Shown here: positions 60,301 to 64,000 of the stretch, piece after piece
Numbering within the stretch: the first letter of the stretch is position 1
How the letters are laid out: each line of letters begins with the position of its first letter
NCBI RefSeq assembly: GCF_024223415.1
Contig: NZ_CP100500.1
Direction: 5' to 3' (one strand)
DNA from: Escherichia coli
GTDB lineage: Bacteria; Pseudomonadota; Gammaproteobacteria; Enterobacterales; Enterobacteriaceae
DNA length: 64,000 nucleotides
Program-made: the position numbers

Positions 60301-63300
60301 GAAAAAAGTCGATAATACCGCCATTGCTGGGATAGCTCGCCCCCAGACGCGCATAGGCATAACCGGAAAACATCGCCACAATACCGCCAAAAGCAAAGGC
60401 GACCCAGGTCGAGGCTTCCATTAGCAACGCAGCCTGCCCCAGCAGCGCGAAGATCCCCGCCCCCACCATTGCCCCAATACCGATGGAAACGACATTCCAT
60501 AGACCGAGGGGTTTGTTACCGTTATTACCTTCCGTGTTCATCATGATCAGCCCTTAAACACGTTATAGCCGAGTTGCTTAGCGACCGATGCCACCATTTT
60601 TTGACCGCGAACACTGTTGCCATCTTCGTCCAGCGGTGGTGAGAACGCGGCAATTCCCATCACGCCAGGGACGACCGCCAGAATACCGCCACCTACACCG
60701 CTTTTGCCCGGTAAACCAACGCGATACGCCCAGTCACCGGAGCGACCATACAGCCCTTCCATCATCATTTCGGCCAGAATATACGGCACGTTGTCGGCCT
60801 GAAGAACGCGTTCATGCGTCAGCGGATTCACCCCCCCCGCCGCCAGCGTCGCGCCAAGCGTTGCCAGTTCAACAGTATTGATGAGCGTGGAGCACTGACG
60901 GGTGTACACGTCACAGGCTTCCATTGCATCACAATAGAGATATCCGGCGGAGTACAGCAGCCAGGCAATGGCCCGGTTATGGAAGTTGGTTGTTTGTTCC
61001 GACTGGTTGACTTCGTCAGAGAGCGCTACCAGCTCACCAGCCAGTTGCTGTTGGATATGTAAAATTCGCTGCCAGCGTTGTTCGGCATTTTCAGCGTTAA
61101 TCAGGCTGGTGGTGGCAATAGCGCCAGCATTTACCAGTGGCGACAGCGGTTTGCCGCCATGCAACTCTAAGGCGATAACTGAGTTAAAGGGCAATCCGGT
61201 CGGGTCAGCGCCAATTTTGTCCTGTACCGCCTGCGGGCCGACATCTTCTAACGCAAGGGCTAACGTACAGACTTTCGAGATGGATTCCAGCGCAAAGCGG
61301 TAATCACTGTCACCCGCACTATAGACGTTGCCATCGCAGGTCACGATAGCCACTGCCGCCAGTTGACCTGGTACATTCGCCAGAAAGGGAATGTAATCGG
61401 CATTTTGTCCGCCGTTAAGTGAGTGAAATTGGGTGTAAGCCTGATCCACTGCCTGCTGTAATTTGTTTGCATCTAACATCTTTTGTTAACTCCTTTTTAT
61501 AGATGCGGGAGGTAATTCCTCACCCCGGTGCCGATTTTCAGGCATCCTGATTTAACTTAGCACCCGCAACTTAACTACAGGAAAACAAAGAGATAAATGT
61601 CTAATCCTGATGCAAATCGAGCCGATTTTTTAATCTTTACGGACTTTTACTCGCCTGGGTTATTAATTTCTTGACCTTCCCCTTGCTGGGGACAAAGAAC
61701 TGCGTGGTGTAAAATAACACCACGCAATATCAATAAGTTACATAACCACTTTAACTCTCTACCTCCCTTTTTCCTCAAAATGTGGACACTCAATGGACAT
61801 ATCACATAGCGGATTATGCATCACAGCATCGCTTAAATAATCCGGCGAAAAATGCGCATAAGTCATTGTCTGAGATATATCTGCATGACCGAGGATTTTT
61901 TGAAGAGAAATAATATTCCCCCCATTCATCATAAAATGGGTGGCAAATGTATGCCTCAATACATGAACCGCTTGACCGTCCGGCAAATTAGGCTTAGCCA
62001 CCTTCAGTTTCAGCCTAAACCATTTATAACTCACCCGAAATAAACGCCCCTCCTTGCGATGTTTTACAAGCCTAACAACATCATCAGAAACAGGAACAAC
62101 CCGACGCTTATTATTTTTTGTGAAATTAAATACAACCTTATTACCGATAATATGTTCCCCCATTAGCTGATATGCTTCATTCCAGCGACAGCCTGTAGAC
62201 AACAAAAGGACAGCCATTCGGTAATAATCTCCCGAACCCTTGCAGATAGAAAGAAACGCACCAATCTCTTCATGATTAAGATAAGCCATCTCTGGGGTTT
62301 TTTCCTTGAGGCGAGGAAGCGACAATACAGGGTTACTACCGTGATATTCACCAATCTCTGCCATAGCCTTTAACGCAGCGCTAAACGCAAAAAGATCATG
62401 GTTGATTGTAGATGCCTTAACCCCTTGATCGAGACGGCGCGATCTATATTCAGCAACCATGCGTTCATCAATCTCGTACATCATAGGGTCACCCATATCA
62501 AGACAAATACACTGGAGGTTATTCAGTCTACGATTCGCGTAATCCTTGTGACGACCTATCAGTAACCACCACGTCGCAATGAAATCGCTTAAATATCGCT
62601 TGTCCAGAAGATTACCGAAAACATCAACAGAAGGGCGATCAGCAAGAACTTCGCGTTCAAATGCTACAGCCAGATTTTTTTTCTCAAACTTCCGACGAAT
62701 GCGCCTTCCCTTACTTCCGTCGGGTCGAATGTCCACAAAATAGCGACCATCTTCGAGCTTCTTAATTGACATAAGAAGACCCTCCAACAGTCCATTCTCC
62801 ATCTTGAAAACAGATAGAGAAAACGTATTCCTTATAAAGAGTTAACCAGTCTGTTTCCCTGATTGGGGTGACGTTGTTTCGACGTGCCCACAGTGTGCGA
62901 GAGCCGGGGCTATTTGCCCGTGTTCTGGGTCGATGCGGTCATACATAAACCAATTCTGATACTTATGAAAACGGGGGTGACCAAATATCTTAATTGCAGA
63001 TTCCAATGTCATCTTAGATTTGTCACGCTCATAGCCGTGATAGGTTGTGTAATTAAGCCCTACTAAATCAACAAATTGCTGTTTTGTTAGCCTTTCCGAA
63101 TCTCGCATGATCGCTAACTTTTCACCTTGAGTATTTGACATATTTACGAGTACTCCATATAGTTACGCAAAAACAACATTCCTAGCCTAAAACGGCAAAA
63201 CACCGTCAAAGGCCGATTAGGCTAAGCAAGCCTCAATCAATGGCAACCTTGGAGTGTATCAAAAAATGGCAAAACAACGAGATTTTGAACAAATCACGAC

Positions 63301-64000
63301 ACATCAGCATTGCCGTCTCTATCCATTAGACGGCTACATCACGATGAACGTGTGCAAAATGAGTTCAACGCAGGCTGGACGCATACGTGATATGAGTCTG
63401 AGCGACTTACAACAACAGGAGTTTGTTAGCCCAGAGGAGTTTGCATACATCACGGGGCGCACCTACAAAGCAGCCAAAAACATCATGGACCGAAACGAAA
63501 GCCTGCTTATTAAGGAATACGCCACGCCAGACGCAACACGACCTAAGCGATTTATCAGACTCCAGCACTACTGGGCCGCAATTATCAACAACAAAGCATC
63601 GCTGACACCACGCGAGCATCTATTTATCAATGAGATTCGAAACAACAAAACGCTTTACCGCGAGATGATGAAAATCAATCTCAAGATTCGCGAAGGGCGA
63701 GAAGTCTCGAAAAAAAAACCAAGATACTCCCATCAATCGCAATCAGCGGCATAACACCAAAAGGAGTTTTCCCATGTGCGACCTGAGCAAAGCAGAGCTA
63801 ATTGCAATCATATTGTTTGCCATAGATTTTGGTTTTCTTTTGAGCGGCGCAATTCTCCTTCCTGCAATTAACAGGAAAAATTAATCACCACTGCAAATAA
63901 CAAGAGCCAACAACATGACCCCAAGACAAGTATTAATCTCCAAAAATGATGACATATTGCACTTTCAAGTAAAATACATAATAGCCACAACAAAGGTAGG

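What the first reader, a model, noticed from the sequence alone, without database searches (positions are those of the whole stretch)
61480..63754. P2-like prophage (int, C repressor) integrated immediately upstream of glsA
The 347-aa integrase followed by a 99-aa C-type repressor on the same strand, with a divergent early gene, is the characteristic left end of P2-family prophages. The attachment site must lie in the 280-bp interval 61480-61758 between glsA and int. The window also has a P4-type integrase at its other end, and P4-like satellites depend on P2-like helpers, so the pairing may be functionally relevant.
Basis: partly seen in the sequence, partly recalled or inferred. Interest (0 to 1): 0.4.

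Follow-up and report, generated by a model that had tools for sequence, protein, structure and literature searches.

The report
P2-like prophage in copA promoter
The last 2.3 kb of the window is the left end of an ordinary P2-family prophage of E. coli; its only unusual feature is its insertion point, the strongly conserved copper-sensor (CueR) binding site in the promoter of the copper pump gene copA.

Summary
Window 61670-64000 is attL, int, C, the Pe switch and a Cox-type gene of a Peduoviridae (P2-like) prophage.

- **Proteins:** Int is 337 aa, not 347, and is 47% identical to P2 Int. C is 99 aa and 52% identical to P2 C. The divergent gene is 162 aa with an excisionase/Cox fold.
- **Attachment site:** It comprises the -35 hexamer plus the left half-site and spacer of the CueR operator of the copA promoter. 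Integration rebuilds that promoter at attR.
- **Completeness:** The phage part of the window is 100% identical to strain GF60. There the element is a complete ~35-kb prophage, glsA|int...gpA...Q P O N M L...tail...ogr|copA.
- **Spread:** The prophage end is nearly invariant across hosts whose adjacent glsA-ybaT flank differs by 1.5-3%, which points to recent spread. Related int-C-cox modules sit at the same 20-mer in Yersinia, Rahnella, Rouxiella and Citrobacter.
- **P4 idea:** Not supported. In the nearest genome the P4-type integrase at 492-1742 belongs to a PICI-like island with no annotated P4 genes.

This is a new member of a known kind. Interest is modest.

The parts
60547..61479 (-). 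glsA (glutaminase A), the chromosomal flank on the attL side
   Evidence: Pfam Glutaminase 1.9e-107; annotated glsA in GF60 and O157.
61636..61650 (.). TTTACggactTTTAC, a perfect GTAAA-N5-GTAAA (CpxR-type) box on the minus strand, 20 bp upstream of the copA -35. It is host DNA that stays on the glsA side of the prophage.
   Evidence: Read directly from the sequence. The CpxR motif is given in PMC9600279, and CpxR regulation of copA is stated in PMC11005409. That this box is the functional site is an inference.
61670..61689 (+). attL core CTTGACCTTCCCCTTGCTGG: the -35 hexamer TTGACC (61671-61676), the CueR left half-site CCTTCC (61675-61680), the 7-bp spacer, and the first GG of the right half-site
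   Evidence: The same 20-mer is at attR next to copA in GF60 and at the empty site in O157. The published CueR-binding copA oligo is TTGACCTTCCCCTTGCTGGAAGGTTTA (PMC9004249). The CueR box is CCTTCC-N7-GGAAGG (PMC8169799).
61699..61728 (-). 12-pair hairpin 30 nt downstream of the int stop codon, likely the int terminator. An equivalent hairpin is present at this position in all related attL sites.
   Evidence: Terminator-like site; equivalent inverted repeats in L082, L055, L041 and L084.
61781..61799 (+). P' arm: direct repeats TGTGGACA (61781-61788) and AATGGACA (61792-61799), inside the 3' end of int as in P2
   Evidence: The P2-type arm consensus is tgTGGaCa (PMC3448106). In P2 the P' arm overlaps the 3' end of int.
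61759..62772 (-). int, a P2-type tyrosine integrase of 337 aa
   Evidence: 47% identity to P2 Int over 323 aa, E 4e-107, with RWxEA, HxLRH, LGH and YAHF conserved. Pfam Int_N plus Phage_integrase. The nearest deposited phage Int is 53% identical.
62842..63141 (-). C, a P2-type immunity repressor of 99 aa
   Evidence: 52% identity to P2 C over all 99 aa; full-length phrog_147 match, 3.6e-32.
63135..63163 (+). Pe-like early promoter TTGACA-17-TATAGT, with the -35 overlapping the C start codon as in P2
   Evidence: 11 of 12 consensus match; P2 annotation of Pe relative to C.
63183..63224 (.). 8-bp inverted repeat TAGCCTAA...TTAGGCTA in the switch/leader region. It may be an operator or a leader-RNA hairpin; its function is not established.
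63266..63754 (+). Cox-type excisionase / lytic repressor candidate, 162 aa: a conserved ~45-aa N-terminal extension, a winged-helix excisionase domain, and C-terminal helices
63774..63884 (+). 36-aa hydrophobic ORF (MCDLSKAELIAIILFAIDFGFLLSGAILLPAINRKN) with an AAGGAG ribosome-binding site, probably the second early gene
   Evidence: Sequence; called as a 36-aa gene in one assembly (L099).

Best explanation
Window 61670-64000 is the attL end and lysogeny module of a temperate P2-like (Peduoviridae) prophage.

**How it works (by analogy with P2).** A P2-type tyrosine integrase recombined the phage attP with a 20-bp host sequence, CTTGACCTTCCCCTTGCTGG. attP consists of P-arm repeats, an IHF-like site, the core, and P' arm repeats inside the 3' end of int. 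The host target is the -35 element plus the left half and spacer of the CueR operator of the copA promoter.

The phage carries the same 20-mer, so the CueR-dependent promoter is rebuilt intact at attR in front of copA. A half-operator is left at attL, 190 bp upstream of glsA.

In the lysogen the 99-aa C repressor, made with int from the minus strand, shuts off the strong early promoter Pe, which overlaps the start of C. When Pe fires, its first product is a 162-aa Cox-type protein with an excisionase fold. By analogy with P2 Cox this protein would repress C synthesis and direct Int towards excision.

**Shown:**
- gene identities
- att core and arm repeats
- Pe promoter match
- complete prophages in genomes with an identical end
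- recurrence of the same module at the same core in five genera

**Inferred:**
- completeness in the source strain
- the roles of C and Cox
- the crossover lying inside the 20-mer
For: **Lysogeny module**
- Int and C are 47% and 52% identical to P2 Int and C over their full lengths.
- Arm repeats match the P2-type consensus (PMC3448106).
- The Pe match is 11/12, with the same geometry as P2.

**Attachment site**
- The core is shared by attL, attR and the empty attB.
- The core is part of the published CueR-binding copA promoter DNA.

**Completeness and activity**
- The prophage part of the window has 0 mismatches to GF60 over 2311 bp.
- GF60 and 24A16CRGN010 carry a full gene set from int to ogr between glsA and copA. 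The GF60 tape-measure ORF is intact.
- In 10 of 10 sampled assemblies with the exact Int, the order is glsA|int|C|cox|early genes|Phage_GPA.
- Across these hosts the prophage end differs by 0-1 nt per 2311 bp, while the adjacent glsA-ybaT flank differs by 35-76 nt per 2418 bp.

**Lineage**
- Int (58-62% identity), C and the long Cox lie beside the same 20-mer in Rouxiella, Yersinia and Rahnella. Citrobacter has attL/attR-flanked remnants.
Against: - Only 2.3 kb of the element is inside the window, and the source strain was not found among the genomes searched.
- A second lineage at the same site (79% nt identity) is a deleted ~18-kb remnant in strain H1827/12, so decay at this site does occur.
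- No excised attP junction was found in IMG/VR, JGI metagenomes or deposited phage genomes, so there is no direct evidence of excision or virions.
- No consensus Pc promoter was found.
- Sequence similarity to Cox is weak: the PDB profile search gave E 0.43.
Confidence: 0.9

Rival explanations
1. The copy in this genome is a defective remnant (int, C, cox and perhaps a few early genes), not a complete and inducible prophage.
For: The window stops at 64000. A related lineage at the same site is heavily deleted in H1827/12. Citrobacter amalonaticus keeps only 1.5-2.9-kb attL/attR-flanked remnants with a truncated int.
Against: The window's 2311 bp of prophage is identical to that of GF60, which is complete. 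All 10 sampled assemblies with the exact Int continue through gpA. int, C and cox are all intact ORFs.
Confidence: 0.08
2. The P2-like prophage and the P4-type integrase element at the other end of the window form a helper-satellite pair.
For: The integrase at 492-1742 has the P4-type Arm-DNA-bind_3 domain. One complete genome, AST19, carries both a copA-site element and the allE island.
Against: The nearest island (98.4% identity) has PICI-like content: an AlpA-like regulator, a RepA-type helicase/primase, and its own major head and decoration proteins. No sid, psu, delta, epsilon or alpha genes are annotated there. GF60 and the other four genomes with this prophage are not among the 12 genomes that match the whole int-allE junction. 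P4-type integrases head many kinds of unrelated islands (general knowledge).
Confidence: 0.04
3. The element is a non-phage integrative island that merely borrowed a P2-type int-C module.
For: Regulatory and late modules of P2-like phages recombine freely (PMC3448106).
Against: In genomes with an identical end, the element contains the whole P2 late gene set, gpA and ogr. The head genes are 77% identical at the nucleotide level to Xuanwuvirus/P88-type Peduoviridae.
Confidence: 0.02

Closest known systems
Bacteriophage P2 (Peduovirus P2), int-C-cox lysogeny module and attP
   Same: Gene order and strands match: int and C on one strand, cox divergent. C is 99 aa. Int is 337 aa with the same catalytic motifs and the Y/D/R arm-binding discriminators. 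Pe -35 overlaps the start of C. The P' arm lies in the 3' end of int. Arm repeats are of the tgTGGaCa type. The spacings between P arm, core and P' arm are almost the same (about 35 and about 92 bp, against 36 and 87 bp in P2).
   Different: Protein identity is only 47% (Int) and 52% (C), so a different immunity and integration specificity is expected. attB is the copA promoter, not P2 locI. The Cox-position protein is 162 aa with a conserved N-terminal extension (P2 Cox is 91 aa) and has barely detectable sequence similarity. In full-length relatives the FI-U tail block is inverted relative to P2.
Yersinia phage vB_YenM_42.18 (Firavirus, Peduoviridae)
   Same: It has the nearest deposited phage integrase (53% identity). 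It is the only deposited phage with a homologue of the Cox-position protein (33% identity), and that homologue sits at the same position.
   Different: The sequence beside its int gene, at the start of the record, does not contain the CueR-operator core. Its Cox homologue lacks the N-terminal extension.
Xuanwuvirus / phage P88-type E. coli Peduoviridae
   Same: These are the closest head-gene block (Q P O N M) to the full-length relatives of this prophage, at about 77% nucleotide identity over 96% of the block.
   Different: 77% identity is well below species level, and no similarity to their int-C region was detected beyond the general family level.
Other P2-type phages with intergenic attB sites (W-phi, phiD145)
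   Same: P2-type integrases characteristically integrate between genes rather than into tRNA genes (PMC3448106).
   Different: The E. coli sites listed there (MG1655 coordinates 2165238, 4104392 and 950293, plus ileX/ileY for 186) do not include the copA-glsA spacer. Here the core is a transcription-factor operator.
Satellite phage P4
   Same: Only the integrase family of the element at 492-1742.
   Different: None of the P4-specific genes is annotated in the nearest related island, which carries its own capsid genes instead.

Membership tests
P2-like temperate phage (Peduoviridae), P2-type regulatory region | P2-type tyrosine integrase with an N-terminal arm-binding domain | tested here: met
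   47% identity to P2 Int over 323 aa, E 4e-107; Pfam Int_N plus Phage_integrase; Y11/D14/R16 match the P2-type discriminators of PMC3448106.
P2-like temperate phage (Peduoviridae), P2-type regulatory region | Short (about 99 aa) C-type immunity repressor directly upstream of int on the same strand | tested here: met
   99 aa, 52% identical to P2 C end to end; phrog_147 3.6e-32.
P2-like temperate phage (Peduoviridae), P2-type regulatory region | Divergent early operon whose first gene is a Cox/Apl-type excisionase-repressor | tested here: inconclusive
P2-like temperate phage (Peduoviridae), P2-type regulatory region | Face-to-face Pe/Pc switch between C and cox | tested here: inconclusive
   Pe is found (11/12 match, with -35 overlapping the start of C as in P2). 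No consensus Pc was detected.
P2-like temperate phage (Peduoviridae), P2-type regulatory region | attP with a core identical to attB, flanked by tgTGGaCa arm repeats | tested here: met
   The 20-bp core is identical in attL, attR and attB. The P' arm is in the window at 61781-61799. The P arm ATGGACACtacGTGGACAC is in GF60.
P2-like temperate phage (Peduoviridae), P2-type regulatory region | P2-type replication (gpA) and late genes (Q P O N M L, contractile tail, ogr) | not testable with these tools
   These lie outside the window. They are present in GF60 and 24A16CRGN010, whose prophage end is identical or nearly identical. Phage_GPA is present in 10 of 10 sampled assemblies.
P4-like satellite (for the integrase at 492-1742) | P4-type integrase | tested here: met
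   Arm-DNA-bind_3 1.8e-18 plus Phage_integrase 2e-16.
P4-like satellite (for the integrase at 492-1742) | P4 core genes: alpha primase-helicase, sid, psu, delta, epsilon | tested here: not met
   The nearest island (AR_0085, 98.4% identity) has none annotated. It instead encodes an AlpA-like regulator, a RepA-type helicase/primase, a major head protein and a decoration protein. The island body itself lies outside the window.

The most novel reading that the evidence does not exclude
This prophage may belong to a previously undescribed lineage of P2-like phages in Enterobacterales whose integrase has specialised on a MerR-type operator: the CueR box and -35 of the copA promoter.

The operator geometry, 7-bp inverted repeats around a 7-bp spacer, resembles a tyrosine-recombinase core site. 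Its strong conservation (the exact 20-mer in 82 species-representative loci) would give the phage a target as dependable as a tRNA gene.

Two consequences would follow.
1. Lysogeny rewires host stress regulation. CueR control of copA is kept. The upstream CpxR-type box is moved 35 kb away from copA. Read-through from C-int points into glsA-ybaT.
2. CueR bound at attB and attR may compete with or assist Int, linking integration or excision to the copper regulator. At least one relative's attL keeps a complete CueR dyad on the phage side (L052).
Probability: 0.2. Interest if true: 0.55.

Novelty: new member of a known kind. Interest (0 to 1): 0.3.

Why it matters
In itself this is a routine prophage end, and it should be annotated as such: attL, int, C, Pe and a cox-like gene.

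Its modest value lies in three points.
- **A new attB class.** It defines an attB for P2-type integrases, the CueR operator of the copA promoter. I could not find this site in the survey of P2-like integration sites (PMC3448106) or in full-text searches.
- **A rule that extends beyond tRNA genes.** It shows that temperate phages choose very conserved host sequences as landing sites, and that this extends to a transcription-factor operator.
- **A testable prediction.** Lysogens should keep copper (CueR) induction of copA but lose any input from the upstream CpxR-type box.

The 20-bp site and its integrase could also serve as a site-specific integration tool for many Enterobacterales.

Tried and rejected
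**Searches that found nothing or too little**
- I looked for the excised attP junction (ATGCTTGACCTTCCCCTTGCTGGGGAC). There were 0 hits in IMG/VR and in JGI metagenomes, and only chance hits in deposited phages. There is therefore no direct evidence of excision.
- I tried to find the source strain. The best match for the left end is 98.4%, and none of 10 sampled assemblies matches the flank exactly.
- I tried to link the 162-aa protein to Cox by sequence. There were no Pfam or PHROG hits. Pairwise BLASTP gave E 0.003, the PDB profile search gave E 0.43, and an exhaustive HMMER search returned only 14 close relatives. Only the fold comparison was informative.
- A consensus scan for Pc found nothing. 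I also looked for repeats shared between the core-to-P' region and the switch region, as Cox boxes would be, and found none of 7 nt or longer.
- Literature searches for a prophage at copA/glsA/ybaS returned nothing relevant.

**Readings considered and rejected**
- A P4 satellite at the left end.
- The PGAP 'pseudogene' flag on the tape-measure gene as evidence of decay. The ORF is intact at 1185 aa.
- The 347-aa integrase start.

**Left as tentative**
- The TTACG direct repeats (63144-63148 and 63163-63167) flank the Pe -10 and could be C operators. They are too short to distinguish from chance.
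Full report
**What is in the sequence**

They are glsA at 60547-61479 (-), an integrase ORF at 61759-62802 (-), a 99-aa ORF at 62842-63141 (-), and a divergent ORF at 63254-63754 (+).

Pfam assigns Glutaminase to the first and Int_N plus Phage_integrase to the second. PHROGs assigns the 99-aa protein, over its full length, to a family of phage transcriptional regulators (phrog_147, 3.6e-32). It finds nothing for the divergent ORF.

Against canonical P2 (NC_001895), the integrase is 47% identical over 323 residues (E 4e-107). The RWxEA, HxLRH, LGH and YAHF motifs are conserved. 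The alignment starts at M11 of the mechanical ORF, and a GGAGG lies 8 nt upstream of that ATG. The real protein is therefore 337 aa (61759-62772), as PGAP also calls it. The 99-aa protein is 52% identical to the P2 C repressor from end to end.

**The attachment site**

A megablast against 5,426 complete E. coli genomes shows that only the first 210 bases after glsA are universal. I compared three sequences: the window, the far end of the same element in strain GF60, and an unoccupied site in O157:H7.

| Site | Sequence |
|---|---|
| attL (window) | ttaatttCTTGACCTTCCCCTTGCTGGggacaaag |
| attR (GF60) | taaaatgCTTGACCTTCCCCTTGCTGGaaggttta |
| attB (O157:H7) | ttaatttCTTGACCTTCCCCTTGCTGGaaggttta |

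All three were confirmed by script.

The rest of attP has P2 architecture:
- Two direct repeats, TGTGGACA and AATGGACA, lie at 61781-61799 inside the 3' end of int. They match the P2-type arm consensus tgTGGaCa (PMC3448106).
- In GF60 the P arm ATGGACACtacGTGGACAC lies 35 bp before the core, with an IHF-like AATCAGACTGTTA between them.
- The spacings are nearly those annotated for P2.
- A 12-pair hairpin follows the int stop codon.

**What the core is**

The 20-mer is the start of the DNA used experimentally as the CueR-binding copA promoter fragment, TTGACCTTCCCCTTGCTGGAAGGTTTA (PMC9004249). It comprises the -35 hexamer, the left half-site CCTTCC, the 7-bp spacer and the first GG of the CueR box CCTTCC-N7-GGAAGG. 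That promoter has a 19-bp spacer (PMC8169799).

Because attP carries the same 20-mer, the promoter from -35 onwards is rebuilt unchanged at attR in front of copA. A half-operator remains at attL.

A perfect GTAAA-N5-GTAAA box on the opposite strand (61636-61650) sits 20 bp upstream of the -35 and stays on the glsA side. CpxR is reported to contribute to copA transcription (PMC11005409; motif in PMC9600279). That this box mediates the effect, and that lysogeny removes it, is my inference.

**The switch**

A near-consensus promoter, TTGACA-17-TATAGT (11/12), lies at 63135-63163 on the plus strand. Its -35 overlaps the C start codon, which is the geometry of P2 Pe. No consensus Pc was found.

The divergent gene most likely starts at 63266, giving 162 aa, because its homologues begin there. 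It belongs to a very small family: 10 clusters in 5.8 billion proteins and 14 representatives in 1.84 billion.

- Pukovnik Xis
- a Klebsiella excisionase
- BldC
- Tn916 Xis

I read it as a Cox-type recombination directionality factor and lytic repressor. It carries a conserved ~45-residue N-terminal extension of unknown role.

**Is it a whole prophage?**

The window ends 2.3 kb into the element, so this cannot be seen directly. The indirect evidence is as follows.
- The prophage part (61690-64000) has no mismatch to GF60.
- In GF60 and in 24A16CRGN010 the element runs about 35 kb. It goes from int through early genes, gpA, a RelE/HTH pair, Q P O N M L, lysis, baseplate, tail fibre, sheath/tube/tape measure, D and ogr, and it ends at copA.
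- The tape-measure 'pseudogene' flag is an annotation artefact; the ORF is intact at 1185 aa.
- The head genes are about 77% identical to Xuanwuvirus/P88-type Peduoviridae.
- The exact Int sequence occurs on 609 public contigs, all from E. coli.
- In 10 of 10 sampled places the order is glsA|int|C|cox|early genes|Phage_GPA.
- Among those hosts the prophage end differs by 0-1 nt in 2311 bp, while the adjoining glsA-ybaT flank differs by 35-76 nt in 2418 bp. The first flank differences lie 11 and 19 bp from the core. This pattern is what recent, independent site-specific lysogenisation produces.

Against this, no excised attP junction was found in any collection. A related lineage at the same site (Int 82% and C 85% identical) is a deleted 18-kb remnant in H1827/12.

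**A lineage, not a single case**

The exact 20-mer occurs in 82 species-representative loci. These are mostly Enterobacterales but also include alpha-proteobacteria. About 57 of the matches continue with AAGGT, the rest of the CueR dyad.

In Rouxiella silvae, Yersinia pekkanenii and Rahnella ecdela the 20-mer is followed by the same hairpin, TGGACA arm repeats, a P2-type int (58-62% identity), C (60-72%) and the long Cox-type gene (37-39%). In Rouxiella and Yersinia the host flank on the other side is cueR itself. Citrobacter amalonaticus has 1.5-2.9-kb remnants bounded by attL and attR in front of copA.

The nearest deposited phage integrase (53% identity, Yersinia phage vB_YenM_42.18) lacks this core in the sequence beside its int gene. 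The survey of P2-like integration sites lists no E. coli site at this locus, and full-text searches found no description.

**The P4 idea**

The integrase at 492-1742 does have the P4-type arm-binding domain. The nearest genome carrying it (98.4% identity) shows a ~10.6-kb island between allE and allC. That island has an AlpA-like regulator, an Icd-like protein, a RepA-type helicase/primase, SSB, PerC, a major head protein and a head decoration protein. None of the genes that define P4 is annotated there. GF60 and the other four genomes with the prophage are not among the 12 that match the whole int-allE junction. A P2-P4 helper-satellite reading is not supported.

**Verdict**

Its integration target is interesting and apparently undescribed, and its Cox homologue is variant. 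It is a new member of a known kind, with interest of about 0.3.

Noticed in passing
window 1-1950 (integrase 492-1742, minus strand); L007 6700-17800: A P4-type integrase sits next to allE. In strain AR_0085 it heads a ~10.6-kb island between allE and allC with PICI-like content: an AlpA-like regulator, an Icd-like protein, a RepA-type helicase/primase, SSB, PerC, a major head protein, a head decoration protein and a weak terS-like ORF. No tRNA gene is nearby. Only 12 of 5,426 complete genomes match at least 80% of window 1-2700, the stretch spanning the int-allE junction. Its helper phage and satellite class are unknown.
   Followed up: partly
window 36679-57456 (minus strand), with 57559-58914 and 33342-36655: A 6,925-aa Ig-like/BapA-type giant adhesin gene lies between ybaT and cueR, together with a TolC-family gene and what look from their sizes like the transporter genes of a type I secretion system. 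It is present in only some of the strains that carry the prophage.
   Followed up: no
window 63774-63884: A 36-aa strongly hydrophobic ORF with a good AAGGAG ribosome-binding site lies directly after the cox-like gene. RefSeq leaves it unannotated in GF60, but one assembly calls it.
   Followed up: no
window 63236-63268 and 63709-63717: The ends of the cox-like gene vary between strains. A single SNP at 63238 (ATC versus ATG) yields a 172-aa form on 348 contigs, against the 162-aa form on 541 contigs. The 24A16CRGN010 copy of this stretch is one base shorter and is annotated as a 215-aa ORF that reads through to about 63883. The position of the indel was not mapped; the A9 run at 63709-63717 is a candidate. 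This could be sequencing error or real variation.
   Followed up: partly
L094-L102 about 5541-5762; L009 6621-6839 (prophage early region, outside the window): The full-length prophage encodes a 72-aa protein that hits Pfam PF25738 'Derepression' and is named 'derepression protein' by PGAP in 24A16CRGN010.
   Followed up: no
L002 11900-13200 (GF60, between ogr and attR, outside the window): There are several tandem-like modules of about 200 bp. Each ends in a near-identical GC-rich hairpin plus T-run (ttttgcccgccggaaagcgggcattttttt) just upstream of the P arm. They might insulate copA from phage late transcription.
   Followed up: no
L002 3900-10300; L008 29576-35409 (outside the window): In this lineage the sheath-tube-E-T-U tail block is on the opposite strand to D and ogr, unlike P2.
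   Followed up: no
L052 and L084 (Citrobacter amalonaticus): Short remnants of 1.5-2.9 kb are bounded by two copies of the 20-mer in front of copA. In L052 the attL phage side keeps AAGGTTTT, which completes the CueR dyad. That phage's attP therefore probably carried a whole CueR operator.
   Followed up: partly
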